64,000 bases of DNA from Candidatus Eiseniibacteriota bacterium (GTDB taxonomy: Bacteria; Eisenbacteria; RBG-16-71-46), in contig JANXPZ010000125.1 in the NCBI GenBank assembly GCA_025357055.1, forward strand, positions 800 through 64,799, in the 5' to 3' direction. The notes beneath the pieces were generated by a model that was given only the letters and a program-made list of their open reading frames with translations, was not told where the DNA came from and ran no database searches. The translations under genes and the position numbers were made by a program. This document shows, one piece after another, positions 19,000 through 59,180 of this stretch; positions within the stretch are counted from its first letter, which is position 1; the number at the start of each line of letters is the position of its first letter.

Positions 19000-19081
19000 G
19001 GACGGCGGCCGGGAAGGGGGCTAGGCTCACCGGCTCCCGAAGCGGACTTCCTGTCCCTACGTCCCACCCCGAGGTAGGCCC

Positions 19082-40183: not shown

Positions 40184-42816
40184 CTAGGGGACGACGGTCA
40201 CGCGGCGGGTGAGGCTCCTGCCTCCATGGGTCAGACGGACGAGATAGATGCCGGGCTCGAGGGCCAGGCCCTCGGAGACGTTCACCAGGTGGGGGCCGAC
40301 GCCTTCCACCTGCCGCCTGGCCGACTGGCGGCCCGCCACGTCGAGCAACTCGAGCGTGGCGGGAGTGGCGTCGGGCAGCGCCAGGGAGATGAACACGCCC
40401 TCCCTGCGCGAAGCGGGGTTGGGCCGGGCGCCGTGGAGAGCGAAGACCGTCGTCGGCACGTCCAGCGGCACGCCCACCCAGACCGCGCTGGTCGTCCGCG
40501 GCGTCTCACCGTCGAGCCACGCCAGCCGGTAGGCGTAATGGGCGCCGGGCGAGACCGTGGCGTCCACGAAGGTCAGTCTCCCGGCGCCGGCACTCGTGGG
40601 CTCGCCGATCGCGACGAAGTCCGTCAGGCTGTCCCGGCGCTCGACCGTGATGACGGGCTGGGGGCTCCCGCTGGTGGTCCAGAACAGGGTCACGCGCCCG
40701 GACGTGGACACGACCCTCGAGAACAGGGCCTCGAACGACGTGGCCAGCAATGGCACGGTGGCGGCGTAGACGTCGGGGTCGGCGTTGCGGCCATCGGCCC
40801 AGGCCGCGTACAGGTCGGCGTGGTTCGCGAACAGCGACAGGTAGTCGCCCTGGTTCGGCATGATGTTGCTGGCGACGTTGGTCCAATCCGTCTGCGTCGC
40901 GTTCAGGGCGCCGACCGGGGTCCAGGTCGTGCCGTTGTCGTCCGAGCGCGACAGGTGGACGTTCGAGCCGCCGCCGCAGATCGAGGCCGAGTCGCGCCAG
41001 TCGTACCAGAGGCAGTAGGGCTTGCTGTCGCCGCCGCTCCCGCCCACCGCCACCTCGGGGAGCCAGTCGTCGTAGCCGGCCGGGCTGTCGCTCGACCGGA
41101 CGGGAGCGGACCAGGTCGCGCCGTCGTCCGACCAGGTCACGAACACGTCGCGGTGGTCGCGCGCTCGCTCGCCTGCGGTGGGCGTGTCCAGGCCCGTGAC
41201 GATCCGGTAGGCGCCGACGCTGCCGTCCCACGAGGCGCAGCGCGCGTAGTAGGTGCCGCTCACGGGCAAGGTGAAGCAGATGAAGTTGGTCAGCCCCGTG
41301 CCGGGCGCGGAGAGAGCGAGGCGGGTCGCGCCATCGCTGCAGAAGAGCCGCAGCGACATGTTGAACGTGGAACTGATGGAATCGGCGTAGAAGATCACGG
41401 TCTGGCCCGCCGTGCCGTTGAAGCTGAAGAAATCGAAGTCCGAGGGTGCCGAGAGGGAGCCCCTCAGGGTCTTGCCGGGGGTGAAAGCATCCGCCGTGGC
41501 CAGCGAGTCGTTGACCTCCGTCTCGGAGACGGAGCCGGTCGTGCCCAGGGCGGCGTCGTAGAAATCGACGGATTCGTTCCAGGCCATGTAGATGCGGCCG
41601 CGATACGGCCCGCTCGAACGGTCCACCGCGATCGAGGGGTAGGTGATGCCGGTGCCCCGGTTGAACCCCGGCGCGCCGCTGCCGAAATTCGAGTAGATCG
41701 AGGCCGCGTTGACGGCCGCGTCGAAGGTCGCACCCTGGTCCGTGGACTTGCGGAGCTTCATGAGGTCCACGTCCACCAGGCCGATGGAGTACCAGGTGAC
41801 GTAGACCTCGCCGTTCGGGCCCACCACGGGGCGGGAACCCTGCACGTATCCGGCTTCGGCGCTGGCGGAGAGGCGCTGGGGGCTGTCCCAGGTCGTGCCG
41901 CCGACCGAGGAGCGCTGGAAGACGATCGTGTCCGCGGCGACGCTGAAGACGGTGTAGGAGAGGTAGAGCCGGCCGCTGAGCGAGTCCGCTGCGAGCCAGG
42001 GCTTGTCGAACAGGACCGAGGCGTTGTTGCCAAGACGCACCAGCGCGGGCGTGCTCCACTGCACCGTGTCGGCGTTGAAGCGCGCCTTCACCAGCGCGAT
42101 GCCGTTCCTCGTGGAGTTGTCATCCACCATCGCGCAGAACCAGAAGTCCCCCGTCTTCTCGTTGACCGTGACCAGCGGATCGCTGGCCCAGCGCCAGCCC
42201 GCCGGCACGGGTGGAGAGCCGCCGTCGGTGTAGGTGACCCCTCCGTCCACCGAGTAGCCGTAGCCCTGCGTGCTGGTCGTGGTAGCGGTCGCGAATCCCA
42301 GACCGTCGTTCCAGGCGACCAGTATGTTCGAGCCCTGCGCGGCGATCATCTGCTCGGCCTGCCCGATGGAGGAGTAGGCGGCGTCCTGCGCGCGGTCGTT
42401 GACGAGCACGTCGGGGCCCAGGGCCGCCGTGGCTCGCGCGGGCGAAGCCGTCCGTGTGCCCGGCGCGCCCGTGCCCGGACCCTGGGGGCCGCCGGCCTCG
42501 TACCAGTCGCCCCGCCGCCGGACTCCGGCGCCGGGCCGCACCTGCCCGGGGTGTCTGCGGATCAGCCGGGTGAGCTCCTTCGCCCGCGCCATCCGTGCGC
42601 GCGCGCCCTGGAGGATGAGTCGCTGCTGCAGACGCTTGAGCGCGGGGGCATACGAGGAGACCTTAGCCCCGGCCGACGGCCCGGAGTACTGGCCGGGCTC
42701 CTCGGCGCGGGCCGCGGACGGTCCGGCGTTCGCGAAGGAGAGCAGGGAGGCCACCAGCGCCAGTGCGAGCACGAACGCTGCGCGGAGCGTGGCGGAGTGG
42801 TGAAGACGCAGGGGCA
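40184..42816 (-). CDS. Secreted BNR/sialidase-superfamily repeat protein with T9SS-type (Por/FlgD-Ig-like) C-terminal domain
   Basis: Signal peptide; Asp-box-like motifs (STDQGATF, SDDGATWS, SDDNGTTWT); C-terminal ~80 aa ...PNPASRREGVFISLALPDATPATLELLDVAGRQ...GIYLVRLTHGGRSLTRRVTVVP. Confidence 0.6.
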
Positions 42817-43084
42817 TGGCGGACGTCCTTCTCGGGGTGTTGGGTTCGGATCCCGCACAAGTCCCGGCCGTGGGGCGAACTGGCCCGGGATTCCTGGCGC
42901 CCCACCCCGGGGCACCAGAGCGCGTGTATTGCTCACGCAGGGCAATCTTCGCACCGCCCCGCGCGCGAGTCCACCCGGCCACCGGGTCCGGCGCGGAGGG
43001 CCCGGCGCGCCGGCCTTCACCCGCCCGCGACGACGACGGGGGCGGGTGAAGGCCGCCCCCGTCGCCGACTACGGTCCGGGACGA

Positions 43085-46000
43085 TCAACGCATGCGCGCG
43101 ATCTTGCGGCTCATGGTCCGGCCCTCGGCGTCGAGGCGCAGGAAGTAGATCCCGGCGCTCGACGGCCGGCCGTCCTGGTCAAGGCCGTCCCACGAGACGC
43201 GGTGCTCGCCCGCGGCCTGCGCGCCGTGCACCAGCAGGCGCACCCGGCGGCCCTGCACGTCGAGCACGTCGAGCGAGGCGTCGCCCGGGCGCGTGAGCGT
43301 GAACGCGATCGAAGTCGAGTGGAGCATCGGGTTGGGGTGCGCATCGGCGAGCATGAGCGTGGCGGGCTGCACGCGGGAGGCCACGTCCACCCACGCGCCC
43401 GGCACGCGGAAGTCGGTCTCGAGGCGGCCGCTGCGCGTCGGCGAGCGCCACGGACCGTTCGGGAAATACACCGACCGGGCGAGGGTGCGCATCTGCCACG
43501 CGTACGGCACACCGCTGGTCAGGCCGGTCGCGCCCGCGAGGAGGCTCGCCATGCTGCCGTAGGCGCCCGGTGCCCCGGTCGCGACCCACCCGGTGATGCC
43601 GCTTGCGCCCGGAGCCGGCAGGCCGACCACCGGCGTGACGCGGTACTGCAGGCGCACCCTGGTGCGGCCCGCGGCCGAGCGGCCGTGCGAGAGGAGGAAG
43701 AGGCCGCCCGGATCGCTCTGGCAACCCGGCTGGATCAGGTGCGCGGGCGCGGTGCTGCGATAGCCGACGCCGAGCTGGAGCGAGCCCGAGCCCTGCGCGC
43801 CATAGCGCACCTGGCAGAGGCCCTGGCGGCCGAGCACATTGCTGTAGCCCGGCTCGCCGAAGATCAGATCGCTCCAGCCGTCGCTGTTCACATCGCCCGC
43901 GTTGGCGAGCGAGTGCCCCATGTTCGCGAACGCCGAGCCGCCGGTCGCGCTCCAGAACGCCGGTGCGCCGGCCGGCAGCGGGCCGCGGAAGACGTGGGCG
44001 GCGCCCTGGTCCTGCGGGCCGCCCTGGTCCTGGAAGACGGCGCCGACGAGCACGTCGCTGAGGCCGTCGCCGTCGACGTCGCCCGCCGAGGACACGGCCG
44101 AGCCGAAGCCGCCGTACGCCTCGCCGCCGTACTGGGTCCACAGCAGGCCCAGCGAACCGTCCGCGATCCCGATGAAGACGCGCGCCGCGCCCTCGCCGCT
44201 GAGGGTGTTGGTGGCCGAGGGAGCGCCCACGATGATGTCGCTGAGCCCGTCGCCGTTCACGTCGCCCGCGCCGGCGACCGAAGCGCCGAAGCGCCAGGAC
44301 GACGCCCTCGCGGAGATCGTGAACGTCGTCGAGGGGCCCGCGGTTGAGCCGTAAGCCACCACCACGTGGCCGGCATCGGGGAAGATCGCCCCCGCCTTGC
44401 CGGGCGTATCGAAGTCGGGCGCGCCGATGACGACGTCGGAGAAGCCGTCGCCGTTGACGTCGCCCGCGCCGGCCACCGAGCTGCCCAGGTGCGCGTCGGC
44501 CTGGCCGCCGCTGGCCGACCACATCGGCGTGGTGCTGAGCCCGCCCGGGCCGCCGCGGTAGACGTAGACACGGCCCTCGCCCGGGAGCGGCGAGGTGGGA
44601 TCGACGCCCATGGGCGCGCCCACGATCACGTCCGCATAGCCGTCGCCGTCCACGTCGCCGGCCGGGGCGACCGAGCCGCCGAACTGGCTGCCGGCGCTGA
44701 AGCCGGTGAGGGTGACGTTCGGGGCGGAGGGCAGCCCGCCCGGGCCTCCGTACCAGATGCGAGCCTGTCCCACGCCGCCCGCGGCGGTGTGGGCGCCGAT
44801 GATGAGGTCGGCGTAGCCATCGCCGTTGATGTCACCGGCCGAGGCGACCGAGACGCCGAGTTGATCGCCCGAGGCCCCAAAGGTGTACCAGGTCGCGGTC
44901 GGCACCAGCCCGGTCGCGCTCCCACGGAACAACTGGATGAGCCCGTTGTTTGACTCACCCGGTGAGATGTAGTTGTACCAGGTGGGCTCGCCCACCAGCA
45001 CGTCGTCGTAGCCGTCGCCGTTGACGTCGCCGGCCGAGGCCACCGACCAGCCCAGGTTCGGGTTCTCGATCGCGGTCTGGGTGATGCTCCAGTTCGAGTA
45101 CGACGAAGGCGGCGAGCCGACCCCGTAGTGCACCAGCACGCGCCCCTCGGAGGACTCGCCATTGGTGAAGTACGGGTCGCCCACGAGCAGGTCGCTGAGG
45201 CCGTCGCCGTTCACGTCACCGGCGGTCATCACGTGGGTCGAGCCGGCCGGGTATCCAAGCAGTTGCTGGATGATGAGCGTGGTGCCCACGCTCTGGGCCA
45301 GGTCCACGCGCGAGCTCTCGCCGATCAGCAGGTCGGGCCGGCCGTCGCCGTTCACGTCGCCGGCGGGTGTCAGCGTGATGCCGAACTGCGCGTTCGCGAC
45401 TCCCGAGGACTCCCACCAGAGCAGGTTCGCGGTCGCGGTGTCCACGCCCGCGGCGGAGCCCCGAAAGACGAACGCCATGCCGGATGCGGTCCCGTAGGTG
45501 TTGTCGGCCGGAGCGCCGACCGCGACGTCGGCGTAGCCGTCGCCATTGAGGTCGCCCGCCGGCGCGACGGTGGCGCCGAACTCCCCGTACTGGTGGTGAC
45601 CGAGGAGCGTGGTGCTGCCGACGAGGGTGCCGAGGTTCGAGAAGCCGGGAGTCAGTGGCAGCCCGGCGGCGGAGCCGTAGATCACGTAGGCCTTGCCCAC
45701 CGGGTCGAAGCTGAACGTCGCTTCGGCCAGTGGGGCACCCACGATGATGTCGTCGAAGCCGTCGGCGTTGACGTCCCCCGCGCCTGCGACCGACGAGCCG
45801 AGGTGGGCGTTGAGGCCGGTGGCCGTGCAGCCGGTCAAAAACCAGTTGTTCGTCATGCTCACGCCCGTGGCCGAGCCATAGAGCACCTCGGCCACGCCAC
45901 TGCCGGGCGATGGCGTGCAGGGCCAGAACCCGGCCGCGCTCGGCATCCCGAAGATGAGGTCGCCGAAGCCGTCACCGTTCACGTCCCCGGCCGGCGCGAC

Positions 46001-46633
46001 GTTGAAACCGTAGAGATTGCTGCCGAAGGACGAGAGCGAGTTGAAGTTCACCAGGTCGAGGCCGCCCGCGGCGCCGAAGTACACGCGCGCCGATCCGTTG
46101 AGATACCAGAACAACACGATGTCGCCCAGGTTGTCGCCGTTCACGTCCCCCGCAGGGGCGACCTGGGCGCCCGGCGGCAGGTCGACGACCGGGTAGCCGG
46201 ACGCCAGCACCGGGCCGCTCGCGCTGCCGAGGTAGAGGTAGAGCGCGCTGTGGTAGGAGTTCACGTCCCCGATCGCGACGAAGTCGCTGATGCCGTCGCC
46301 GTCCACGTCACCGGCCGGGGTCAGGCTCATGCCGAGCATGCGGTTGGCGACATTGGACTCGGACGACCAACCCACGGTCGCCGTCAGCAACGCCGGCTGC
46401 GCCACGCGGTCGGGGACGGCGATCCCCCGCGGCGCGGCGGGCGGGGCGCCTGCACGCGTGATGATGCCGAGGTCGGGCAGGAACGACTGCAGCGCGGCGG
46501 GCGGCGGCGCGGGGACCGGGGTCATGAACGAGTCGAGGTCCGGCAGGCCGGCTGCGGCGGCGCTCGCCAGGGTGAGCGCCAGGGCGACGAGGGCCCCGCC
46601 GAGGAGGCGGGATGGACGGGTGGCGTGGCGCAT
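43085..46633 (-). CDS. Giant secreted FG-GAP/VCBS-repeat protein (about 1180 aa) with T9SS-type C-terminal domain
   Basis: More than 15 repeats of ..AGDVNGDG(Y/F)(A/S)D(V/L)..; C-terminus ...PNPMLHSTSIAFTLTRPGDASLDVLDVQGRRVRLL...GIYFLRLDAEGRTMSRKIARMR, homologous to the C-terminus of 40184..42816. Confidence 0.7.
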   Translation of the reverse strand: MRHATRPSRLLGGALVALALTLASAAAAGLPDLDSFMTPVPAPPPAALQSFLPDLGIITRAGAPPAAPRGIAVPDRVAQPALLTATVGWSSESNVANRMLGMSLTPAGDVDGDGISDFVAIGDVNSYHSALYLYLGSASGPVLASGYPVVDLPPGAQVAPAGDVNGDNLGDIVLFWYLNGSARVYFGAAGGLDLVNFNSLSSFGSNLYGFNVAPAGDVNGDGFGDLIFGMPSAAGFWPCTPSPGSGVAEVLYGSATGVSMTNNWFLTGCTATGLNAHLGSSVAGAGDVNADGFDDIIVGAPLAEATFSFDPVGKAYVIYGSAAGLPLTPGFSNLGTLVGSTTLLGHHQYGEFGATVAPAGDLNGDGYADVAVGAPADNTYGTASGMAFVFRGSAAGVDTATANLLWWESSGVANAQFGITLTPAGDVNGDGRPDLLIGESSRVDLAQSVGTTLIIQQLLGYPAGSTHVMTAGDVNGDGLSDLLVGDPYFTNGESSEGRVLVHYGVGSPPSSYSNWSITQTAIENPNLGWSVASAGDVNGDGYDDVLVGEPTWYNYISPGESNNGLIQLFRGSATGLVPTATWYTFGASGDQLGVSVASAGDINGDGYADLIIGAHTAAGGVGQARIWYGGPGGLPSAPNVTLTGFSAGSQFGGSVAPAGDVDGDGYADVIVGAPMGVDPTSPLPGEGRVYVYRGGPGGLSTTPMWSASGGQADAHLGSSVAGAGDVNGDGFSDVVIGAPDFDTPGKAGAIFPDAGHVVVAYGSTAGPSTTFTISARASSWRFGASVAGAGDVNGDGLSDIIVGAPSATNTLSGEGAARVFIGIADGSLGLLWTQYGGEAYGGFGSAVSSAGDVDGDGLSDVLVGAVFQDQGGPQDQGAAHVFRGPLPAGAPAFWSATGGSAFANMGHSLANAGDVNSDGWSDLIFGEPGYSNVLGRQGLCQVRYGAQGSGSLQLGVGYRSTAPAHLIQPGCQSDPGGLFLLSHGRSAAGRTRVRLQYRVTPVVGLPAPGASGITGWVATGAPGAYGSMASLLAGATGLTSGVPYAWQMRTLARSVYFPNGPWRSPTRSGRLETDFRVPGAWVDVASRVQPATLMLADAHPNPMLHSTSIAFTLTRPGDASLDVLDVQGRRVRLLVHGAQAAGEHRVSWDGLDQDGRPSSAGIYFLRLDAEGRTMSRKIARMR

Positions 46634-46853
46634 GTGGGGCCTCCGAGTCGTGGGGGGACGACGCGGCCGCACGTCCATTCAACCAGTCCCTGCGGATAGG
46701 AATCGCCTATCCAGGCGCGGACCCTAGCACGGTGAAGTCGGGCCGGACAATGAATATTTGACCGGTCCTGTGCTCAAACGTGACGAGTGGATCGCTGGCC
46801 CATCGCCACCCCCCGGGGCGGGAGTCTCCCCGGCCGATTTCAGCCGTCCGGTC

Positions 46854-50569: not shown

Positions 50570-50614
50570 GAGGCCCGGCCAACGGGGCCGCGGCGGTACG
50601 CGCCCGGGCTCCGT

Positions 50615-50980
50615 TCACTCTCCCCGGTAGGTGCAGCGCGCCGTGCAGGTCTCGTGCACGGTGATGGCCGCGAGCCCGGAAAGCCCGGGCGCGAGCCGCC
50701 GCCACAGCCAGCCGCAGAGCACCTCGGAGGTGGCGTTCTCGAGACCGGGCACGTCGTTCAGCGTGCGGTGGTCCAGTTCGCCCTGAAGCACGGGCTCGAC
50801 CACGGCCGTGATGCCGGCGTAGTCCACCAGCCAGCCGGTCTTGGTGTCCACCTCGCCCGCCACCGTGATCTCGATGCGGAACGAGTGGCCGTGCAGGCGG
50901 TGGCACTTGTGCTCGGGCGGCACCATCGGCAGGCGATGCGCCGCTTCGAAGCGGAACTCCTTGGTCAGCTCGACACGCAT
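50615..50980 (-). CDS. queD: 6-carboxy-5,6,7,8-tetrahydropterin synthase
   Basis: MRVELTKEFRFEAAHRLP...HKCHRLHGHSF... matches the QueD/PTPS family with Cys-His-His zinc motif; 121 aa. Confidence 0.8.
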   Translation of the reverse strand: MRVELTKEFRFEAAHRLPMVPPEHKCHRLHGHSFRIEITVAGEVDTKTGWLVDYAGITAVVEPVLQGELDHRTLNDVPGLENATSEVLCGWLWRRLAPGLSGLAAITVHETCTARCTYRGE

Positions 50981-50982
50981 GG

Positions 50983-51719
50983 TCAGGTCCGGGAAGTGGG
51001 CTCGAGGCCCGGAAGGTCCGTCACGTAGCGCACGGGGTCGGGCAGGCCGGCCTCGCGGAAGCCCTTCAGGCGCAGCAGGCAGGCGTCGCAACGTCCGCAG
51101 GCCGCGCAGGCGCCCGGCGAAGCCGGGTCCGGGGCGGGATCGTAGCAGGTGTGGGTGAGCGAGTAGTCGAGCCCGAGCGAGCGCCCGAGCCGGATCACGC
51201 CGGCCTTGTCGAGGCTCATGAGCGGGGTGTGCACGGTGAAGACCGCGCCCCCCGCGCCGGCGCGGGTGGCCAGGTTCGCGAGGGCCTCGAAGGCGCGCAC
51301 GAACTCGGGGCGGCAGTCCGGGTAGCCCGAGTAATCGAGCGCGTTCATGCCGGCCACCAGGTCGTGCGCGTCGAGTGTCTCCGCCAGGGCAAGGGCGAGG
51401 CCCAGCAGCACGGTGTTGCGCGCGGGCACGTAGGTGACGGGGATGTCCGCTCCCATCGCGCGCTCGTCGCGGTCGCGCGGGACCTCGAGGTCGGCGGTCA
51501 GGGCGGAGCCACCGATGGCGCGCAGGTCCAGCTTGAGCTCGCGGTGCCCGGCCGATCCGAGGGCCTGCGCCACGCGCCGCGCGGCCTCCAGTTCCACGCG
51601 GTGGCGCTGGCCGTAGTCCACGGCGAGCGTCCAGCACTCGAAGCCCCGCTCGCGTGCCCAGGCGAGGCAGGTGGAGGAGTCGAGTCCGCCCGAGAGCAGC
51701 ACGACCGCGCGTGCGCTCA
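50983..51719 (-). CDS. queC: 7-cyano-7-deazaguanine synthase
   Basis: GTG start; ...[18 protein letters not shown]... PP-loop; C-terminal CxxCxxC...C zinc motif ([10 protein letters not shown]). Confidence 0.8.
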
Positions 51720-51730
51720 CGCCGGGGCCC

Positions 51731-52401
51731 TCACACGCCCCGCCTCGCGCCCCACAGCCAGACGTGGAGACGCGGCGAGAGCCGGAAGCCGTGGCGTTTG
51801 CAGACCTCGGAGAGCGCCACCGCCCGTTCGCGCAACCCGTCGTCGGTGTAGCCCTCGGGCATGAGCATGACGCGCCCGGGCGGGATGGCGTGCTCCTTGA
51901 GCAGGCGCAGCGCGTCGGTCTCGTCGGGCGCATCGCCCACGACGATCTTGAACGTGGCGTTGGGCTCGGCGAGCCAGGCGGCGGTGTGCCGCCAGGTCTG
52001 CTCCCAGCGCGGCGTGGCCCGGGGCAGCTTGGGCGAGACGTTCCACAGCAGCTGTTCGTGCGAGTGCGGTGGCGGCAGCACGCCGGCGGTCTCGACCTCC
52101 ACGCGCTCCCAGCGGTCGAGCGCCTGCTCGAGGAGCGGGACCAGGGCCGGCGTCTCGAGCGGCTCGCCGCCAGTCACGACCAGCAACGGTGCGGAGCCGA
52201 GGGCGCGAAGTTCATCGAGCAACAGGCCGGGCTCGCAGTCACGCCCGCCGGCGGTGTCCCAGGAGTACTTCGTGTCGCACCAGCTGCAGCCGACAGAGCA
52301 GCCCTGCAGGCGCAGGAAGTGCGCCGGCACGCCGGCCGATGGCCCCTCGCCCTGGAGCGAGAGGAAGATCTCGCCCACACGCACGGTGGTGATGGTGGAC
52401 A
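51731..52401 (-). CDS. queE: 7-carboxy-7-deazaguanine synthase (radical SAM)
   Basis: [24 protein letters not shown]...[18 protein letters not shown] (Cx14CxxC-type QueE motif); 223 aa. Confidence 0.75.
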
Positions 52402-52404
52402 TGC

Positions 52405-52587
52405 TCAGTGTCCGGCCCCGCGGTGGAGATCGAACTCCTTGCGACAGTTGAAGCACTTCCAGTGGTAGGCCGGCTGGGCGGCGGGCCAGGCGACGTAGTC
52501 GTTGCGGCCGCAGCCGGGGCACGAGATGCGCGTGCGCCCGGTCCTGCCTTCGGCGGCGAGCGAGTCCTGCGAGATCTCCTGCATCAT
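52405..52587 (-). CDS. Small zinc-ribbon protein (60 aa), hypothetical
   Basis: CPGCGRND...CFNCRKEF double CxxC; stop 3 nt upstream of the queE start. Confidence 0.35.
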   Translation of the reverse strand: MMQEISQDSLAAEGRTGRTRISCPGCGRNDYVAWPAAQPAYHWKCFNCRKEFDLHRGAGH

Positions 52588-52684
52588 GGATCGTCCGGGA
52601 TCGAGGTGGGACTGCGCGGTGGGAGCGAACGCGGGAGTATAGGCGCCCGGCGCAGGGCTGGGAAAGGGGTGCTGGTGCAGGCGC

Positions 52685-53782
52685 CTACCGGAACAGCGCG
52701 GCCTCCGCGCTCAGGCCGGGGCCGAAGCCGATCGCCAGGCACGGTCGCTTCGCGTCGCGGCGGCGCAGGCGCTCGAGGATGAACAGGATGGTCGGCGACG
52801 ACATGTTGCCGAACTCGGCCAGCACGTCGTGGGACACGGCGAAGTCCGCGCGGGTGCGCCCCGTCACCTGGGCGCAGGCCTCGAGGATGCGTGGCCCCCC
52901 GGGATGCACGGCCCAGCTCGCCACGTCCTCGACGCTCAGCGCCTGGCTGGCGAGCCACGGGTCCAGCCAGGGCCTCAGCGATGCCTGGATCAGGCCGGGC
53001 ACGCGCGGCGACAGCGTCATCTGGAAACCGTGGTCGCCGATCCGCCAGGTCATCTCCTCCGCCGAGTCGTCGAGCAGCGCAGAGGCGCTGGCGACCAGCT
53101 CCCAGTCCTCGTGTCCCGTCCTCGCGGTGCCGCCGGCCACCACGGCGCCCGCCCCGTCGCCGAACAGCGCGTTGGCGACCACCAGGTCGGGCGACCAGCC
53201 GTACTGGAAGTGCAGCGAGCACAATTCCACCGCGCAGATCAGCACGCAGGCCTGCGGGGACGAATCCGTGAACGCCTTCGCCACGCGCAGCGCGTGGAAG
53301 GCGCCGTGGCAGCCCATGAACCCGAGGTGCGTGCGCGCGGTCGTCGCGGGCAGGCCCAGCTGGCGCATCAGCCGCACGTCGAAGCCGGGGGCGACGAACC
53401 CGGTACAGGAGACGGTGACGAGGTGCGTGATCTCGCCGGGTGAGCGCCCCGCGTCCGCCAGCGCGGCCGCCGCGGCCGTGACGGCCAGCCGGGGCGCCTC
53501 GGTCTCGTACCGTTGCATGCGCACCGACGTGGACGGACCCTGGTCCTCCGTGTCGCGCCGTGGGGGATAGAAGGTCTGGCCGGCCACTCCAGCGGCGCCG
53601 GGCGACTCCTGCAGCACGCTGCGCCGGGTCCGGATGCGCGAGAGCCGGTAGATCGCGCGCATCTGGCGGCGCTGCTCGTCGTCCTCCGGTCCGAGCGCTT
53701 CTGCGAAGGCCGCGGCCTGTTCCTGCGTGGCCTCGTGAAGCGGCGTGCCCGTCCCCAGGCCCTCGATCCACAGACTCATCAT
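52685..53782 (-). CDS. Type III polyketide synthase (chalcone/stilbene-synthase family; SrsA/ArsB-like)
   Basis: ...VSCTGFVAPG... (active-site Cys region), ...GFMGCHGAFHAL..., C-terminal ...GFGPGL...; start MMSLWIEG at 53782. Confidence 0.75.
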   Translation of the reverse strand: MMSLWIEGLGTGTPLHEATQEQAAAFAEALGPEDDEQRRQMRAIYRLSRIRTRRSVLQESPGAAGVAGQTFYPPRRDTEDQGPSTSVRMQRYETEAPRLAVTAAAAALADAGRSPGEITHLVTVSCTGFVAPGFDVRLMRQLGLPATTARTHLGFMGCHGAFHALRVAKAFTDSSPQACVLICAVELCSLHFQYGWSPDLVVANALFGDGAGAVVAGGTARTGHEDWELVASASALLDDSAEEMTWRIGDHGFQMTLSPRVPGLIQASLRPWLDPWLASQALSVEDVASWAVHPGGPRILEACAQVTGRTRADFAVSHDVLAEFGNMSSPTILFILERLRRRDAKRPCLAIGFGPGLSAEAALFR

Positions 53783-54996
53783 GTCCCTCCCGTCTTCGTG
53801 TGCGGGCCGGCGCCGAGCCTGGTGACGACCGGGTGCGCCAGCGACGGCCAATGTGCGAGCGACCCGATGGCCAGCCGAACGGCCCACGGCGCCCGCAGCG
53901 TGCGGGCGATCATCCTGCACGCGCGTTGCTGGCGGCCGATCAACGAGGCGCGCGTCGCGATCCACTCGCGTTCCAGGAGTCCGTCCCACGCGCCCAGGCC
54001 CCGCTGGATGAACGGCAGGGCTGCGCCGGCTGTCGCCAGCGCCCACGCCATTCCCTCACCGGTGAACGGCTCGACGTAGCCGGCGGTGTCTCCCACGAGC
54101 AGCACGCGACGGCCGACCGGGCGGAGCGTGCGCCGCGTCAGGGGGAGCGTGCCCAGCCAGTCGAGCGAGTCGAAGGCGCCGCTCACCGGGACGCCTGCAT
54201 CCTCGAGCACGCGCACGACGCTGCGGCCGGGGGAGCCGCACTGCCGGATGAAGCGCGGATCCAGCGCGGCGCCCACGTGGACCTGGCCCTCCTCGACCCT
54301 CACCACGCCGACGTAGCCCGACCGGCCGATGGCCATCGTGATCGTTCCGGGTGGAAGGGCCAGGGCGCCAGCCGGGGCCATGCTGCCCATCCCGATGCGG
54401 GAGTTCGCGGTCACCACGCTCTCGAACTCACCGCACGCCCGCAGGCTCGTCTGTGCCAGACCATCGGCGGCGATGACGATGCGGGCTTCGACCGGGACCG
54501 CGGGTTGGCCGCGGACGCTGAGTTCCACGAGGCGCTGGCCGGCAGACGCGGCCTGCGCCGGCTCGCGGGCGATGATCGCGGTGGTCTCGGGCAGGAACCG
54601 CGCCCCCGCCTCGATGGCCGCCGCGGCCAGCATCGCGTCCAGCGTGCGACGCGACACCGCCACGCCCGGGGGCATGGGGATCGACGAGTGCCGCCCATCC
54701 TGCAGGAGGCGCACCGTGGTGATCGCGGGCCCGCCGAGGCGGGCGAGACCATCGCCCAGGCCGGCGCGCTGCAGCGCCTCGACCGCGGTGTGGTTCAGGC
54801 ATCCGCCGCAGGCCTTGGCGCGGGGAAAGGGCGATCGTTCGACCAGCAGCGTGGCCAGGCCCGCGCGCGCGGCCTCCCGCGCGGCGAACGCCCCGCCGGG
54901 CCCCGCCCCGATGACCAGCACGTCCCAGGTCCTCGCCGTCGCACCCGGGACGTCGATCGTGGCGCTCATGCGCGCGGTCGCGTCAGCGTTCGCCAT
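53779..54996 (-). CDS. FAD-dependent oxidoreductase/monooxygenase (geranylgeranyl-reductase-like; SrsC-like)
   Basis: ...WDVLVIGAGPGGAFAAREAARAG... Rossmann FAD motif; ...LVGDTAGYVEPFTGEGM... GD motif. Confidence 0.7.
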   Translation of the reverse strand: MANADATARMSATIDVPGATARTWDVLVIGAGPGGAFAAREAARAGLATLLVERSPFPRAKACGGCLNHTAVEALQRAGLGDGLARLGGPAITTVRLLQDGRHSSIPMPPGVAVSRRTLDAMLAAAAIEAGARFLPETTAIIAREPAQAASAGQRLVELSVRGQPAVPVEARIVIAADGLAQTSLRACGEFESVVTANSRIGMGSMAPAGALALPPGTITMAIGRSGYVGVVRVEEGQVHVGAALDPRFIRQCGSPGRSVVRVLEDAGVPVSGAFDSLDWLGTLPLTRRTLRPVGRRVLLVGDTAGYVEPFTGEGMAWALATAGAALPFIQRGLGAWDGLLEREWIATRASLIGRQQRACRMIARTLRAPWAVRLAIGSLAHWPSLAHPVVTRLGAGPHTKTGGT

Positions 54997-55660
54997 CGCA
55001 CCTCCAGGTCAGCAGGAAGCGCTGGGGCCAGCGCGCGACGATCTGCGCGCCGGTGAGGCCGGCGCGCTCGGCGAGGCGCCGGGTTTCGTGCATGGTGAAC
55101 GCCGCCTCGACCGAGCGCGGGCCATCGACGTGGAACACGCGCGAACGCGAGAGCAGCCGGCATCCCGCCCAGGCGAACAGGTACCCGAGGCGGGTCCTTC
55201 GCAGGTCGGAGACCAGGACCAGGTGACGCGCCGCGGCCCGCATGCGGCGCAGGAGCGTCTCCGCCTCCTCGTCACCGAGATGGTGCAGGAACAGCGAGCA
55301 GAGCACGACGTCGAAGCCGTCCGGCAGCGGTTGGCGCGCGACGTCGAGGGTGGCGAAGGTCACGTGTCGCAGCCCCGCGCGGGTCGCCCGGGCGCGGGCG
55401 TGGTCGATCGCCACGGGGTTGAGATCGACTCCGCAGGCCTCGAGCGCAACGCTTTCGCGGGCGCAACGACGGGCCAGGTCGATGATGACGTGACCGCCGC
55501 CGCAGGCGAGATCGAGGATCCGCAGGGGGCGCCCGGCGCGCGGCACGACCTCACGGATCGCGGGCCAGATCGACGCGGCGCTGCGGCTGACCCGGTGGGC
55601 GCGGCCGAGACCGTCGAGCGCCTCCCGGTGCGCGCGAGGGTCGAGGCCGGGCTGATCCAT
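54983..55660 (-). CDS. Class I SAM-dependent methyltransferase (SrsB-like)
   Basis: ...RILDLACGGGHVIIDLA... motif I; ...FDVVLCSLFLHHL...; start MDQPGLDPRA at 55660. Confidence 0.7.
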   Translation of the reverse strand: MDQPGLDPRAHREALDGLGRAHRVSRSAASIWPAIREVVPRAGRPLRILDLACGGGHVIIDLARRCARESVALEACGVDLNPVAIDHARARATRAGLRHVTFATLDVARQPLPDGFDVVLCSLFLHHLGDEEAETLLRRMRAAARHLVLVSDLRRTRLGYLFAWAGCRLLSRSRVFHVDGPRSVEAAFTMHETRRLAERAGLTGAQIVARWPQRFLLTWRCDGER

Positions 55661-55695
55661 CCACTCGGGCTGGCGGTGACGCCGGGCGGAGACCA

Positions 55696-57081
55696 CTACC
55701 CGGCACCGCCGGGGCGGTCCACGTCGGTCCATCCGGCATCCGCCGGCGTCGGGGCGGTGCCGGGATCGCGGGCCTCGGCCGGGACCCCGCGCGAGTCGCG
55801 CACCTTCCAGGCTGCACGCACGCCCACGAGGCCGGCGACCGCGCACAGCGCGAACAGCACCGGGGCGTTGAGCCAGTCCACCAGCGCCCCGCCCAGCATG
55901 GGCAGCAGCATGGTGGGGCCGAGGAACGTGTTGATCAGCCCGACGAAGGCCTGGCGGCGGCCGGGTGGGGCGAGCAGCAGCATGAGACTCGAGTAGCCGA
56001 CGCCGATCGCGCTCTGCGCCGCACCGCCCAGTCCGATCACGGCCTCGAGGGCGAGCACGGCGGCGCCGGCCGGGAGCCAGCCCAGACCCCAGGGCGAGGC
56101 GACGGCGATCGCCGCCGCCGCCAGCGGCAGGGCGCTGCAGGCCGCCGCGCCGATGCGCAACAGCACGCGGTCGCCGTGGCGGACCGAGAGGCGGTGCCAG
56201 AGCAGGTTGGAGAGCACGAATCCGGCCATGCGCACGATCAGGAACGTGCCCGCGGTGCGTGCGCTGCCGCCCAGCTGGTGCACGGCGAACAGCACGATGA
56301 AGGGCGCCGACGCGAACCACACCGAGAGCGTGGCGCGCGCGATCAGCAGGCGGCGGAAGTGCGCGTCGTGCGCGAGCATGGAGAGGCCCTCGCGCAGCAT
56401 CCCGAGCGGGCTGGCGGTCTCGGGGGATGGCGCGGCGGCGGGCTCGCGGATGGCCGAGAAGCATCCGTAGCCGAGCGAGACGAGCACGGCGGCGATGGCG
56501 AAGAGCAGGGCGAAGCGCGGCGCATCCGTCCCGCCCTGGAACAGCTGGCGCACGAACAGGCCGGCGGCCCCCGCGAACAGGCCGCCCCAGAACAGCCGCA
56601 GCGCCCAGTAGGCCCCGAGCCGCGAGCGCGGCACGGTCTTGCCGACCACCTCCATGAACGGGACCGCGGCCAGCCCCGAGCCGAACGCGTAGGCGCCGTA
56701 GCAGAGCAGGAAGGTGGCGAGCATCGCCTGCGGGTGGGTAGCGAGCGGCACGATGAGCAGGGCGAGCAGGGTGAAGGCGAGGCCGCGGATGACCGCGGCG
56801 AAGCGGTAGAGCCCGAGCGAACGGGGCCGGCGCGAGAGGTACGGCACCGTGGCGAACTGCGGCAGGAACCAGCCGAGGTCCGGCAGCGCGGCACTGAAGC
56901 CGATGAGCGCGTTCGAGGTCGTGAGCTTCGAGAGGAAGACCGGGATGACGGTGTTCGCGTCGACGAAGCCCTCGCCGCCCTGGTAGAGCGCGCCGTTCCA
57001 GACCCCGAGGCGGAAGGAGCGGCGCGGCCCGGAGTCGGAGGTGCTGGCGACGGGGTCGGGCCTGGCGGTGGTCGGGTCCAT
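55696..57081 (-). CDS. MFS-family transporter
   Basis: 12 predicted TM helices; typical MFS loop between TM6 and TM7; start could alternatively be 57120. Confidence 0.65.
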   Translation of the reverse strand: MDPTTARPDPVASTSDSGPRRSFRLGVWNGALYQGGEGFVDANTVIPVFLSKLTTSNALIGFSAALPDLGWFLPQFATVPYLSRRPRSLGLYRFAAVIRGLAFTLLALLIVPLATHPQAMLATFLLCYGAYAFGSGLAAVPFMEVVGKTVPRSRLGAYWALRLFWGGLFAGAAGLFVRQLFQGGTDAPRFALLFAIAAVLVSLGYGCFSAIREPAAAPSPETASPLGMLREGLSMLAHDAHFRRLLIARATLSVWFASAPFIVLFAVHQLGGSARTAGTFLIVRMAGFVLSNLLWHRLSVRHGDRVLLRIGAAACSALPLAAAAIAVASPWGLGWLPAGAAVLALEAVIGLGGAAQSAIGVGYSSLMLLLAPPGRRQAFVGLINTFLGPTMLLPMLGGALVDWLNAPVLFALCAVAGLVGVRAAWKVRDSRGVPAEARDPGTAPTPADAGWTDVDRPGGAG

Positions 57082-57174
57082 GGAGCCGGGAGGATGGCTC
57101 CGCGGGCGGGTGCCGCGCAAACGAAACCCGGCGTCCGGGATGGACCGGAGCGCCGGGTCTCGTTCAGGTGTGGA

Positions 57175-57939
57175 CTATCGGTACAGGGTCTTGATCTTTC
57201 CCCAGGTCGAACGCTGCGCCGGAACGGTGAGCGGCGTGTCCCACTTGCCATTCGGGTGAGCGGTCCAGCCGACCGGAAGAGAACACGTGCCGGTCGCGGC
57301 CGGAACGCTCGGCGGAGCGGGGCACCAGAGGCCCGACAGCAGGTTGATGGCGTTCTCGACCTGGCCGTAACGCGTGCCACCCGTGCACCAGTAGTTCGTC
57401 CGGAACGAACCGCTGTAGATCCCGCTGATCCGGCTGACGAGCACGTTCAGCGTGTCCATCTGGCCGCTCAGCAGCAGGGTGCCGTCCACGAACGCGTCGG
57501 GGACGACTCCGCCGGCGGGAAGAGCCGGAAGCACGGCGGCCACCGGCGCGTTGCGCGGAGAACCTGCGTAGATGCGGAAGTTCCCGCCCACGTACTTGGT
57601 GTTGTACCGCCTCGTCGAGTCGAGGATCGTCGTGACGGTCCCCTGTGAGACCAGGCCATCCCAGATGAACGTGTACTCGGTGCCGGGGTCGAGCGGGTCG
57701 AGGTCCGCGAACGGGTAGCAGAACTTCGACACGAGGCCGACCACGGTGAGCTGGCTCCCGAACGCGGAGCTGAGGTTGGCGACGTCGTAGGCCGTCTCAT
57801 AGGCCCAGGCGTCACCGTCGAACTTGATCATCACGCCGGTTTCGGCCGGCACCGGGGTGCACTGGGCGGTGGCCACGGTCGCGGACAGCGACAGAGCCAG
57901 CAGCCCCATGACCGCCGCTGCCCAAATCTTGTTCTTCAT
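57175..57939 (-). CDS. Secreted hypothetical protein, paralog A, C-terminus ...TWGKIKTLYR
   Basis: Signal peptide MKNKIWAAAVMGLLALSLSATVATA; no known domain; C-terminal decapeptide shared with 57994..58689. Confidence 0.6.
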   Translation of the reverse strand: MKNKIWAAAVMGLLALSLSATVATAQCTPVPAETGVMIKFDGDAWAYETAYDVANLSSAFGSQLTVVGLVSKFCYPFADLDPLDPGTEYTFIWDGLVSQGTVTTILDSTRRYNTKYVGGNFRIYAGSPRNAPVAAVLPALPAGGVVPDAFVDGTLLLSGQMDTLNVLVSRISGIYSGSFRTNYWCTGGTRYGQVENAINLLSGLWCPAPPSVPAATGTCSLPVGWTAHPNGKWDTPLTVPAQRSTWGKIKTLYR

Positions 57940-57993: not shown

Positions 57994-58689
57994 CTAGCGG
58001 TAGAGCGCCTTGAGGGCGCCCCAGGTCCGATGAGTTGCCGGCACGGGACCCGGGATGCGGCATTCGCCGGAGATCTGGTGATCGTACCCGTCCGGGATCG
58101 CCGGGTTCGGACGGCCCGCGAGGCCGGAGAGCGTCCAACCATCGCGCTGCGCCTCGGGAATCTGGGCCAGCAACGAACCCTCGTCGAAATGGATGTTCCC
58201 GGTGAAGCCACCCTGGTTGGCTGCGAAGTCGTAGTTCAGCACGAGGAACTCGATGTGTCCGCCGAGGATCACCGTGCCATCGATGAACGTCGATGGCGCG
58301 GTGGCGTTCGGCGGGTTGGCGCTGTACAGCGCCTGGGTGCTGTTGTCCTCGTAGAATCGCCCGCGCCCCGGATTGGCGAACCCGACCTCGAGATAACGGT
58401 ATTCTGGATAGTAGGTGTAGTTCTGCACCGTGAGGTCGTAGTAGTGGTACGTGTACTCGTTCGCGACGATGTCCACGTACGGAGTCAGATAGGCGTCGAA
58501 CGAGGTCACGAACCCGAGTGCCTTGTAGCCTTCCCCGATCGTCAGGTAATTGCCGTCGGGCCCGGGGTTGGGGTTCGGGGATTCGTAGTCGTAGCCGGCG
58601 AATCCCAGCAGGAAGACGTCAGTCTGTGCGAAAGCAGGTGCGGCGATCGTGCTGAGGGCAAGGAGGAGCAGCAACACTGCACGCTTCAT
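57994..58689 (-). CDS. Secreted hypothetical protein, paralog B, C-terminus ...TWGALKALYR
   Basis: Signal peptide MKRAVLLLLLALSTIAAPAFA; Tyr/Asn-rich; visually lower GC than the surroundings. Confidence 0.6.
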   Translation of the reverse strand: MKRAVLLLLLALSTIAAPAFAQTDVFLLGFAGYDYESPNPNPGPDGNYLTIGEGYKALGFVTSFDAYLTPYVDIVANEYTYHYYDLTVQNYTYYPEYRYLEVGFANPGRGRFYEDNSTQALYSANPPNATAPSTFIDGTVILGGHIEFLVLNYDFAANQGGFTGNIHFDEGSLLAQIPEAQRDGWTLSGLAGRPNPAIPDGYDHQISGECRIPGPVPATHRTWGALKALYR

Positions 58690-59180
58690 CAGCCACCTCC
58701 GCGAGGGGTCAAAGTCAGGAGCCTTGATCGGAAGAGAAGATCCGGATGATGCGACTTGGAGTAGCTGTGGAAAGAAGCGCTCCTGCCCGCCTTTCTGGGT
58801 CCATACCGCCGAGGCCAGCAGACCCACTGTAGGCACACGACGCCCCTCGCGCCGCGAGGAGCGTGTCGGGGGATGACGATGAACCGTCGCACGGCGGCGA
58901 AGTTGCGCCCACGCGCAACGGTTCAACGACAATCAAGCGAGTATACGAGCGTGTAACGGAGATGCAAGGTCAGAAAGGGCCCGGAGTGAAAGGGAGACCT
59001 GCGCAGGGGGCGCGCCGCGGTGAATCATCTCTTTCGGGAGACAGGGGCGGCTGCGAGGGTCTCCGGAAAGCCCGCCTCCCGTCGTGAAGGCGCTCAACCC
59101 ACTGGCCCGGAGCGGCTTGCCTTCCGCCCCTCTCCCGCGGGGGCCGGAAACGTCTACGGGCCCGTTCCTCCGGACCCGGG

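What the first reader, a model, noticed from the sequence alone, without database searches (positions are those of the whole stretch)
52685..57081. SrsABC-like phenolic-lipid biosynthesis cassette (type III PKS + FAD oxidoreductase + methyltransferase) with an MFS transporter
This co-directional cassette is tightly spaced or overlapping (53779-53782 and 54983-54996 overlaps). A type III PKS sits with a SAM methyltransferase and a flavin monooxygenase, the conserved srsABC set in Streptomyces griseus, which has homologs in Azotobacter. That set makes alkylresorcinols/alkylquinones that harden membranes and cyst walls. The upstream MFS gene suggests export. In an organism rich in envelope electron-transfer proteins, a membrane-embedded alkylquinone could also act as a redox lipid.
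Basis: partly seen in the sequence, partly recalled or inferred. Interest (0 to 1): 0.55.

Follow-up and report, generated by a model that had tools for sequence, protein, structure and literature searches.

The report
Hierridin-type alkylresorcinol lipid gene cassette
This is a real but ordinary three-gene cassette (methyltransferase, flavoenzyme, type III polyketide synthase) of the known "hidABC" kind that makes decorated long-chain alkylresorcinol lipids, inserted beside an unrelated housekeeping-locus transporter in an uncultured, probably Eisenbacteria-like bacterium.

Summary
The four co-directional minus-strand genes and both reported overlaps are confirmed. The PKS (52685-53782) has an intact Cys158-His293-Asn326 triad. 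Upstream of it lie a GGR-like FAD oxidoreductase (53779-54996), a soluble class I SAM methyltransferase (54983-55696) and an MFS protein (55696-57081).

The cassette is not a homologue set of srsABC. Its order is MT-FAD-PKS, whereas srs/pkq is PKS-MT-oxygenase. SrsB-type methyltransferases belong to the membrane ICMT family, and the window MT shows no similarity to one. Against a Streptomyces srs-type cluster the PKS is 33% identical and the flavoenzyme 27%.

It matches the hidABC-type operon of picocyanobacteria and Planctomycetota. 55 of 68 usable related loci keep MT-FAD-PKS. Identity to Gimesia is 53-54% (PKS), 43-46% (FAD) and 50-52% (MT). Published work shows such PKSs make C15/C17 alkylresorcinols.

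The MFS gene belongs to the host backbone. Relatives keep esterase, two secreted paralogs, MFS and queE synteny without the cassette.

The likely product is a methylated, possibly hydroxylated, long-chain alkylresorcinol. The flavoenzyme's reaction is unresolved. Verdict: new member of a known kind, low interest.

The parts
52685..53782 (-). Type III polyketide synthase (365 aa), HidC/planctomycetal alkylresorcinol-synthase-like; last gene of the cassette
   Evidence: Pfam Chal_sti_synt_N 3.1e-26 and Chal_sti_synt_C 7e-18. Best PDB sequence hits are 7cb3 (1.5e-53) and PKS18 1ted (4.9e-51). C158/H293/N326 align to the PKS18 triad and are invariant in A1. Identity is 53-54% to Gimesia sp., 52% to Paludisphaera, 42% to D. 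radiodurans and 33% to a Streptomyces srs-type PKS. W246 is invariant.
53779..54996 (-). FAD-dependent oxidoreductase (405 aa), HidB/Fdo-like, GGR-related; overlaps the PKS start by ATGA
   Evidence: TIGR02032 GG-red-SF 3e-37 (128.9 bits, below the 158.8 cut-off) and FAD_binding_3 2.9e-14. The best PDB sequence hit is the GGR 3oz2 at 7e-17, with C63 aligned to the GGR active-site Cys. The P58-R59-x-K61-x-C63-G64 motif is invariant in 35 homologues. The AF2 model has pLDDT 87.5. Foldseek does not separate halogenases, GGR and PHBH hydroxylases. Identity to Gimesia spp. is 43-46%.
54983..55696 (-). Class I SAM-dependent methyltransferase (237 aa, GTG start), HidA/Mtr-like; 14-nt overlap with the FAD gene
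   Evidence: Methyltransf_25 1.1e-17 and NCBIfam PRK06202 8.9e-64 (215 bits, cut-off 243). No ICMT/PEMT hit. No TM segment (maximum hydropathy 1.13). Identity is 50-52% to Gimesia sp., 53% to Paludisphaera and 31% to D. radiodurans. There is no hit to the Streptomyces ICMT.
55696..57081 (-). MFS-superfamily membrane protein (461 aa); lineage backbone gene abutting the cassette (stop TAG overlaps the MT GTG start by 1 nt)
   Evidence: Pfam MFS_1 1.1e-14. Only 95 homologues were found; the named ones are Cand. Eiseniibacteriota/Eisenbacteria. Orthologues (52-59% id) sit at the same syntenic position in L090-L092 without MT/FAD/PKS. It is absent from 81 other PKS loci.
57117..57139 (-). Terminator-like GC hairpin plus T-rich tail, between the upstream secreted-protein gene and the MFS start
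   Evidence: CCCGGACGCCGGG TTTCGTTTGC; sequence read. This is a consensus match only, and fewer were found (1) than expected from shuffles (2.0), so it is weak evidence.
52636..52664 (-). Sigma-70-like promoter match just downstream of the PKS stop, in front of the Zn-ribbon ORF/queE-queC-queD genes
   Evidence: TTCCCA-17-TATACT, 9/12; 1 found against 0.1 expected. This is a consensus match only.

Best explanation
Genes 55696..52685 (minus strand) form a hidABC-type tricistronic cassette.

Proposed pathway:
1. The type III PKS takes a long-chain fatty acyl thioester from primary metabolism as starter. No FAAL or ACP gene is adjacent.
2. It adds three malonyl units and closes the ring by C2-C7 aldol condensation with decarboxylation. 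The product is a 5-alkylresorcinol of about C15-C17.
3. The soluble class I SAM methyltransferase then methylates the resorcinol ring. HidA O-methylates; the Gimesia enzyme was reported as a probable C-methylase.
4. The GGR-related flavoenzyme most probably adds a third ring oxygen, as required for hierridin B. This would give a methoxy-alkylphenol/hydroquinone-type membrane lipid.

The three genes are translationally coupled (ATGA and 14-nt overlaps).

The cassette lies as an insertion between a lineage-conserved MFS gene and a Zn-ribbon/queE-queC-queD block, in an uncultured, probably Candidatus Eiseniibacteriota-related genome. It is probably read through from the MFS gene.

What is shown: gene integrity, catalytic residues, family membership by homology and synteny, and the backbone status of the MFS gene.

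What is inferred: starter length, aldol cyclisation, regiochemistry of methylation, hydroxylation by the flavoenzyme, co-transcription, and physiological role.
For: PKS:
- The triad C158/H293/N326 aligns with the PKS18 triad and is invariant.
- C188 aligns with the PKS18 acyl-tunnel residue C205, which is Phe in the 1tee mutant.
- W246 is invariant across hid-type, Deinococcus and srs/pkq-type PKSs but is Val in the pyrone-forming PKS18. This fits the Trp reported as the resorcinol determinant, ArsB W281 (PMC9927152).

Synteny:
- MT-FAD-PKS order occurs in 55 of 68 related loci with enough upstream DNA. These come from Acidobacteriota, Planctomycetota, Gemmatimonadota, Hydrogenedentota and others.
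- The operon also sits on the Paludisphaera borealis plasmid PALBO1.

Homology and published biochemistry:
- All three proteins align full-length to Gimesia homologues at 43-54% identity.
- The G. maris operon of this order was tested. Its PKS makes C15/C17 alkylresorcinols, and adding MT+Fdo gives +14 Da products. Planctomycetal proteins are 48-55% identical to HidA/B/C (PMC10896814).
- Recombinant HidA methylates 5-pentadecylresorcinol, and HidB is the proposed hydroxylase (PMC6836626).

Integrity: purifying selection on all genes.

Insertion: L091 and L092 keep esterase, pB, pA, MFS, Zn-ribbon and queE but have no MT/FAD/PKS.
Against: - No product is known for this lineage.
- The flavoenzyme's best profile and best solved relative are geranylgeranyl reductases, with the GGR active-site Cys conserved. 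Co-expression of the Gimesia Fdo gave no hydroxylated product (PMC10896814). Hydroxylation is therefore only pathway logic.
- Direct comparison with HidA/B/C sequences was not possible; the link runs through Gimesia.
- PKS18, one of the two best solved relatives, makes pyrones.
- dN/dS of the MT (0.48) and FAD (0.54) genes is rather high, from one pair in a GC3-saturated genome.
Confidence: 0.7

Rival explanations
1. It is a true srsABC/pkqABC-type alkylquinone operon. The PKS makes alkylresorcylic acid/alkylresorcinol, an SrsB-like enzyme O-methylates it, and an SrsC-like hydroxylase gives a hydroquinone that autoxidises to an alkyl-methoxy-quinone.
For: - The same three enzyme classes are present.
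- The overall chemistry is analogous to hid.
- The flavoenzyme shows weak similarity to the Streptomyces srs-type monooxygenase (27%, E=2e-5).
- W246 is shared with the srs/pkq-type PKS.
Against: - The order is MT-FAD-PKS, not PKS-MT-oxygenase (L088; PMC9927152).
- The srsB class is ICMT (PMC6669644). The window MT is class I and soluble, with no similarity to the ICMT.
- The PKS is only 33% identical to the srs-type PKS, against 52-65% to hid-type PKSs.
- The Streptomyces cluster used is a stand-in, not S. griseus srsABC itself.
Confidence: 0.08
2. This is the same hid-type cassette, but the flavoenzyme is a reductase as in its GGR relatives. It would saturate a double bond in the alkyl chain or keep a quinone reduced. 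The end product would then be only a methylated alkylresorcinol.
For: - TIGR02032 is by far the best profile, 128.9 bits against 62.6 for the next.
- The best PDB sequence hit is the GGR 3oz2, with the Cys aligned.
- P-R-x-K-x-C-G-G is invariant in the family.
- Gimesia MT+Fdo gave only methylated products, and unsaturated heptadecenyl species are made by the PKS (PMC10896814).
- PMC8086630 describes the Hid tailoring steps as 'reduction and methylation'.
Against: - Hierridin B needs a third ring oxygen, and HidB is the only candidate in the cluster (PMC6836626).
- QhpG, a monooxygenase, is the second-best profile.
- Structural neighbours include many hydroxylases and halogenases at equal scores.
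- The score is below the TIGR02032 cut-off.
Confidence: 0.25
3. The PKS is a PKS18-like alkylpyrone synthase, cyclising by lactonisation. The cassette would then make methylated alkylpyrones.
For: PKS18 (a pyrone synthase) is one of the two best solved relatives at 4.9e-51, with the tunnel residue C205 conserved.
Against: - Characterised members with the same operon make resorcinols (PMC10896814, PMC6836626).
- W246 is present here and in resorcinol-type PKSs, whereas PKS18 has Val.
- Identity to PKS18 is lower than to Gimesia.
Confidence: 0.08
4. The MFS protein is a dedicated exporter or flippase for the phenolic lipid, making this a four-gene functional unit.
For: - It is co-directional, and its stop overlaps the MT start by 1 nt.
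- A terminator-like hairpin lies upstream of the MFS gene, and a promoter-like site lies only after the PKS.
- MFS-MT-FAD-PKS is kept in L001-L003.
Against: - MFS orthologues sit at the same syntenic position in L090-L092 without the cassette.
- No homologue is present in 81 other PKS loci.
- Published hid/planctomycete operons have three genes.
- L001-L003 are the same lineage, so they add no independent support.
Confidence: 0.12

Closest known systems
hidABC hierridin operon of Cyanobium sp. LEGE 06113, and the homologous methyltransferase-oxidoreductase-type III PKS operon of Planctomycetota (Gimesia maris, Rhodopirellula baltica; Milke et al. 2024, PMC10896814)
   Same: - The gene order MT-FAD oxidoreductase-PKS is identical, in a tight operon.
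- All three proteins are full-length homologues: 43-54% to Gimesia spp., which are themselves reported as 48-55% identical to HidA/B/C.
- No acyl-activating genes are adjacent.
- The predicted product class is a long-chain alkylresorcinol derivative.
   Different: - The host is an uncultured, probably Eisenbacteria-like lineage.
- The closest outside relatives are Acidobacteriota (62-65% PKS identity).
- The cassette is fused by a 1-nt overlap to an upstream MFS backbone gene.
- The regiochemistry of methylation and the flavoenzyme's reaction are unknown.
srsABC of Streptomyces griseus / pkqABC of Mycobacterium smegmatis (alkylresorcinol to alkyl-methoxy-quinone, 'polyketide quinones')
   Same: The logic is analogous: a type III PKS, a methyltransferase and a flavoenzyme make a decorated phenolic lipid. 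A Trp equivalent to W246 is present.
   Different: - The order is PKS-MT-oxygenase.
- The MT is an ICMT-family membrane enzyme, so the fold is unrelated.
- PKS identity is 33% and flavoenzyme identity 27% to a Streptomyces srs-type cluster (L088).
- These PKSs often also use methylmalonyl-CoA.
Geranylgeranyl reductase family (TIGR02032; Thermoplasma GGR 3oz2; MenJ; ChlP)
   Same: This is the best sequence profile and the best solved relative of the flavoenzyme. The P-R-x-K-x-C-G-G stretch, with Cys aligned to the GGR active-site Cys, and the GD-x-AG-x-x-x-P-x-x-G-x-G motif are both present.
   Different: The score is below the family cut-off. Identity is about 20%. The genomic context is a polyketide cassette, not isoprenoid metabolism. 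The proposed reaction is ring oxygenation.
Mycobacterium tuberculosis PKS18 (1ted) and the 7cb3 chalcone/stilbene synthase-like protein
   Same: These are the closest solved structures (E=5e-51 to 1.5e-53). The triad and the C205-equivalent tunnel residue are conserved, implying a long-chain acyl starter.
   Different: PKS18 makes alkylpyrones and lacks the W246-equivalent Trp. It has no MT/FAD partners in this arrangement.

Membership tests
hidABC-type operon (MT - FAD oxidoreductase - type III PKS) | Type III PKS with an intact Cys-His-Asn triad | tested here: met
   C158, H293 and N326 align to the PKS18 triad and are invariant in 15 homologues.
hidABC-type operon (MT - FAD oxidoreductase - type III PKS) | Gene order MT then oxidoreductase then PKS, co-directional and tightly spaced | tested here: met
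   The junctions have 14-nt and 4-nt overlaps. The same order occurs in 55/68 related loci and in the published operons (PMC10896814, PMC6836626).
hidABC-type operon (MT - FAD oxidoreductase - type III PKS) | All three proteins homologous to those of an experimentally studied operon | tested here: met
   Against Gimesia spp.: PKS 53-54%, FAD 43-46%, MT 50-52%, all full length. The OCR-damaged G. maris gene sequences from the paper's supplement hit one-to-one. HidA/B/C themselves were not available.
hidABC-type operon (MT - FAD oxidoreductase - type III PKS) | Product is an alkylresorcinol that is methylated and hydroxylated (hierridin-like) | not testable with these tools
   Requires expression and LC-MS.
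srsABC / pkqABC | SrsB-type methyltransferase (isoprenylcysteine carboxyl methyltransferase family, membrane-embedded) | tested here: not met
   There are no ICMT/PEMT Pfam hits, only class I MT families. There is no BLAST hit at E<=10 to the ICMT of the Streptomyces srs-type cluster L088. There is no hydrophobic segment. The srsB class comes from PMC6669644.
srsABC / pkqABC | Gene order PKS - MT - oxygenase | tested here: not met
   The window order is MT-FAD-PKS. The srs-type order is seen in L088 and described in PMC9927152.
srsABC / pkqABC | SrsC-type FAD monooxygenase | tested here: inconclusive
   27% identity over 276 aa (E=2e-5) to the L088 monooxygenase. The superfamily is the same but the subfamily differs.
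srsABC / pkqABC | SrsA-clade type III PKS | tested here: not met
   33% identity to the L088 PKS, against 52-65% to hid-type PKSs. No tree including SrsA itself was built.
Azotobacter arsABCD | Two type III PKSs flanked by type I FAS-like ArsA/ArsD | tested here: not met
   There is one PKS only. Its neighbours are MT, FAD, MFS, a Zn-ribbon ORF and queE/C/D.
Geranylgeranyl reductase family (TIGR02032) | Score above the curated cut-off | tested here: not met
   128.9 bits against a cut-off of 158.8.
Geranylgeranyl reductase family (TIGR02032) | Conserved active-site Cys in the R/K-x-C-G stretch after the first beta-alpha-beta unit | tested here: met
   C63 aligns with the Cys of 3oz2 and is invariant in 35 homologues.
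Major facilitator superfamily | Pfam MFS_1 above the gathering score, multiple TM segments | tested here: met
   54.6 bits against 33.4. At least 8 strong hydrophobic segments.

The most novel reading that the evidence does not exclude
The cassette product is a methoxy-alkylhydroquinone/quinone that serves as a membrane redox carrier (a 'polyketide quinone') in an uncultured Eisenbacteria-like bacterium that also encodes multihaem cytochromes. It would be made by a GGR-derived, Cys-containing flavoenzyme acting as an unconventional ring hydroxylase. This would extend polyketide quinones beyond Actinobacteria and assign a function to the uncharacterised HidB/Fdo family.
Probability: 0.08. Interest if true: 0.55.

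Novelty: new member of a known kind. Interest (0 to 1): 0.2.

Why it matters
This adds one more uncultured lineage, probably Candidatus Eiseniibacteriota, to the wide and patchy distribution of the hid-type alkylresorcinol cassette. That distribution already covers cyanobacteria, Planctomycetota, Acidobacteriota, Gemmatimonadota and a planctomycete plasmid. The clean presence/absence polymorphism at one syntenic site is a good illustration of cassette-wise horizontal transfer. The only open scientific point is general to the family: what the GGR-like flavoenzyme (HidB/Fdo) actually does. It also corrects a tempting mis-annotation: srsABC and hidABC are analogous, not homologous, sets.

Tried and rejected
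- Exact-sequence look-ups of the window FAD protein and of its 100% identical database twin P0121 gave no contig record.
- PMC3294851, the SrsB paper, is not held. The SrsB family was taken from PMC6669644 instead.
- G. maris t3pks/mtr/fdo sequences copied from the supplement PDF carry OCR indels. tblastn gave the right one-to-one matches, but the identities are unreliable (33-41% to the window, and only 41-62% even to Gimesia sp.). They were not used quantitatively.
- Plasmid hit H15 (Streptomyces sp. BHT-5-2, L085) turned out to be PKS+MMPL, not srs-type. The Microbacterium locus L086 is fragmented. The D. radiodurans PKS-MT-FAD locus L089 has a flavoenzyme unrelated to the window's.
- An AF2 model plus Foldseek was used to try to classify the flavoenzyme as hydroxylase, reductase or halogenase. 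All three classes score alike (E=1e-22 to 1e-19, TM about 0.7, 15-20% identity). The fold does not discriminate.
- I considered a halogenase reading, because hierridin C is chlorinated with no known halogenase. It was not pursued: the Bmp2 alignment covers only the N-terminal FAD-binding part, and the K-x-C-G-G stretch is GGR-like rather than the F-P-R-x-x-I-G-E-S stretch seen in Bmp2.
- The promoter and terminator scans gave one weak match each and are only suggestive.

Full report
**Observation**

The region is about 73% G+C, so many spurious ORFs exist. Four co-directional minus-strand ORFs nevertheless have coding-type GC3 and strong family matches:

| Gene | Coordinates | Length | Start |
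|---|---|---|---|
| MFS | 57081..55696 | 461 aa | ATG |
| SAM methyltransferase (MT) | 55696..54983 | 237 aa | GTG |
| FAD oxidoreductase | 54996..53779 | 405 aa | ATG after GGAGG |
| Type III PKS | 53782..52685 | 365 aa | ATG after GGGAGG |

The junctions were read directly:
- TAGTG, a 1-nt overlap at 55696.
- A 14-nt overlap at 54996-54983.
- ATGA at 53782-53779.

The MT start is placed at the GTG because homologues align from residue 5-6 of that version and gene callers chose it in relatives. Against a 91%-identical relative, dN/dS is 0.19 (MFS), 0.48 (MT), 0.54 (FAD) and 0.31 (PKS).

**The PKS**

- Pfam Chal_sti_synt_N/C match.
- The best solved relatives are 7cb3 and M. tuberculosis PKS18.
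- In that alignment C158, H293 and N326 sit on the PKS18 Cys-His-Asn triad. All three are invariant in 15 homologues down to 57% identity.
- C188 aligns with PKS18 C205. This is the residue changed to Phe in the 1tee mutant that is visible in the same output, and from my own knowledge it lines the long acyl tunnel.
- W246 is invariant in hid-type, Deinococcus and Streptomyces srs/pkq-type PKSs but is Val in the pyrone synthase PKS18. This fits the Trp reported to favour resorcinol formation, ArsB W281 (PMC9927152). The column mapping to ArsB is my inference.

**The neighbours, and which family this is**

The MT is a soluble class I enzyme:
- It matches Methyltransf_25/12/11 and NCBIfam PRK06202 at 9e-64, slightly below the cut-off.
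- It has no hydrophobic segment.

The flavoenzyme's strongest profile by a wide margin is the geranylgeranyl-reductase superfamily TIGR02032 (3e-37, below the cut-off). The monooxygenase QhpG, BchP and MenJ follow.

The srs operon is described as stilbene synthase, isoprenylcysteine carboxyl methyltransferase and monooxygenase (PMC6669644). I found such a cluster on a Streptomyces sp. NBC_00184 plasmid, with the order T3PKS, ICMT, FAD monooxygenase (L088). Against it:
- The window PKS is 33% identical.
- The flavoenzyme is 27% identical (E=2e-5).
- The MT has no hit at all.

By contrast, the published hidABC operon of Cyanobium and the planctomycetal operon have exactly the order methyltransferase, oxidoreductase, type III PKS (PMC6836626; PMC10896814).

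A scan of GTDB species genomes with a PKS profile returned 80 loci. Of the 68 with at least 2 kb upstream (67 of these plus the NCBI locus L004), 55 carry MT-FAD-PKS in this order. They come from Acidobacteriota, Planctomycetota (including Gimesia), Gemmatimonadota, Hydrogenedentota, Elusimicrobia and others.

Identities to related proteins:

| Compared with | PKS | FAD | MT |
|---|---|---|---|
| Gimesia spp. | 53-54% | 43-46% | 50-52% |
| Paludisphaera borealis plasmid PALBO1 operon | 52% | 43% | 53% |

Milke et al. report that planctomycetal proteins are 48-55% identical to HidA/B/C. [quoted passage not shown] The cassette is therefore a hid-type operon. srsABC is an analogous, non-homologous solution.

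**The flavoenzyme**

- An AF2 model built on 35 homologues is confident (pLDDT 87.5, pTM 0.90).
- Foldseek against the PDB gives equal scores to a Cytophaga flavoprotein (3nix), flavin halogenases (Bmp2, PltA, FasV), the GGR 3oz2 and PHBH-type hydroxylases. All have TM of about 0.65-0.73 and 15-20% identity. The fold therefore does not tell the reaction.
- At the sequence level the family has an invariant P58-R59-x-K61-x-C63-G64 stretch. Its Cys aligns with the active-site Cys of the Thermoplasma GGR.
- Hydroxylation is required by the structure of hierridin B, and HidB is the only candidate (PMC6836626). It has not been shown, and the Gimesia enzyme gave no hydroxylated product (PMC10896814).
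- I put hydroxylase at roughly one half and reductase at one quarter.

**The MFS gene and the setting**

- MFS homologues are few (95). The named ones are Candidatus Eiseniibacteriota/Eisenbacteria.
- In three near-identical metagenome contigs the order MFS-MT-FAD-PKS is kept.
- In more distant relatives (MFS 52-59% identical; L090-L092) the synteny is retained: esterase, two secreted paralogs, MFS, Zn-ribbon ORF, queE-queC-queD. There is no MT, FAD or PKS.
- No MFS homologue occurs in the 81 non-lineage PKS loci.

The three-gene cassette is therefore an insertion, or a loss elsewhere, next to a backbone MFS gene. The MFS gene is not part of the conserved unit, although read-through transcription is plausible. 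Supporting that, a terminator-like hairpin lies upstream of the MFS gene and a promoter-like site lies only after the PKS; both are weak consensus matches.

The source assembly is unnamed. It is an NCBI 65.6-kb contig carrying a 100% identical FAD protein. 'Eisenbacteria-like' is an inference from synteny and named homologues.

**Mechanism and comparison**

The most likely mechanism runs in three steps:
1. A long-chain acyl starter is extended with three malonyl-CoA units, followed by aldol cyclisation, giving a 5-alkylresorcinol.
2. The ring is methylated.
3. The ring is possibly hydroxylated, giving a hierridin-like methoxy-alkylphenol/hydroquinone.

The physiological role is unknown. Roles published for analogues include beta-lactam tolerance (S. 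griseus), cyst walls (Azotobacter) and electron carriage (actinobacterial polyketide quinones; PMC9927152). For planctomycetes none of these was confirmed (PMC10896814). The redox-lipid idea is thus neither new nor testable from the sequence. A multihaem cytochrome gene 45 kb away is no evidence for it.

**Verdict**

The finding is real, correctly delimited and chemically well guessed. It is filed under the wrong family and carries an over-read transporter. It is a new member of a known kind, in a lineage for which I found no specific report; searches turned up only general BGC surveys. Interest is low (0.2).

Noticed in passing
window 57175-57939 (-) and 57994-58692 (-): Two paralogous secreted proteins of about 254 and 232 aa, with signal peptides and no Pfam or NCBIfam match. 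Both end in the same C-terminal motif, W-G-x-[IL]-K-x-L-Y-R-stop. The pair and the motif are conserved at the same position in relatives L001, L091 and L092 (WGAVKSLYR, WGSIKSLYR, WGKIKSLYR, ...). A search of 1.84 billion cluster representatives finds only 107 relatives, most of them aligned to their very C-terminus. This may be a lineage-specific C-terminal sorting or anchoring signal.
   Followed up: partly
window 52405-52587 (-): A 60-aa ORF with a C-x2-C...C-x2-C zinc-ribbon pattern (MMQEISQDS...CPGCGRNDY...CFNCRKEF...) lies directly upstream of queE, its stop 2 nt before the queE ATG. It is conserved in L001 and L091. A sigma-70-like promoter match lies just upstream at 52664-52636.
   Followed up: partly
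window about 50600-52402 (-), by synteny with L001: A queE-queC-queD (7-deazaguanine/queuosine precursor) gene block lies immediately downstream of the cassette. QueE (51731-52402) was scored. QueC and PTPS are inferred from L001.
   Followed up: partly
window 6458-8272 (-): A 605-aa multihaem cytochrome combining NapC/NirT, cytochrome c3 and c7 domains. It is about 45 kb from the cassette and not linked to it.
   Followed up: no
window 43088-46678 (-) and 40187-43084 (-): Two large secreted proteins: a 1197-aa protein with nine FG-GAP repeat matches and a C-terminal FlgD Ig-like domain, and a 966-aa BNR/PPC-domain protein. The relative's counterpart shows a weak Por_Secre_tail hit. This hints at type IX-like secretion substrates.
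   Followed up: no
L087 (Paludisphaera borealis plasmid PALBO1, NZ_CP019083.1, 87177-90144): The complete MT-FAD-PKS operon sits on a 112-kb plasmid of a cultured planctomycete, next to sensor kinase/response regulator genes. This is direct evidence that the cassette can reside on a plasmid, that is, on a potentially mobile replicon.
   Followed up: partly
L089 (Deinococcus radiodurans plasmid, NZ_OV024759.1, 230110-234339): This locus has a variant arrangement: PKS, class I MT, NAD(P)/FAD oxidoreductase, glycosyltransferase. The MT is related to the window's (31%), but the flavoenzyme is not detectably related. The flavoenzyme slot in these cassettes has therefore been filled more than once.
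   Followed up: no
window 19025-21808 (+): A 928-aa UPF0182 family membrane protein with a very strong match (2.6e-264). Its function is unknown.
   Followed up: no
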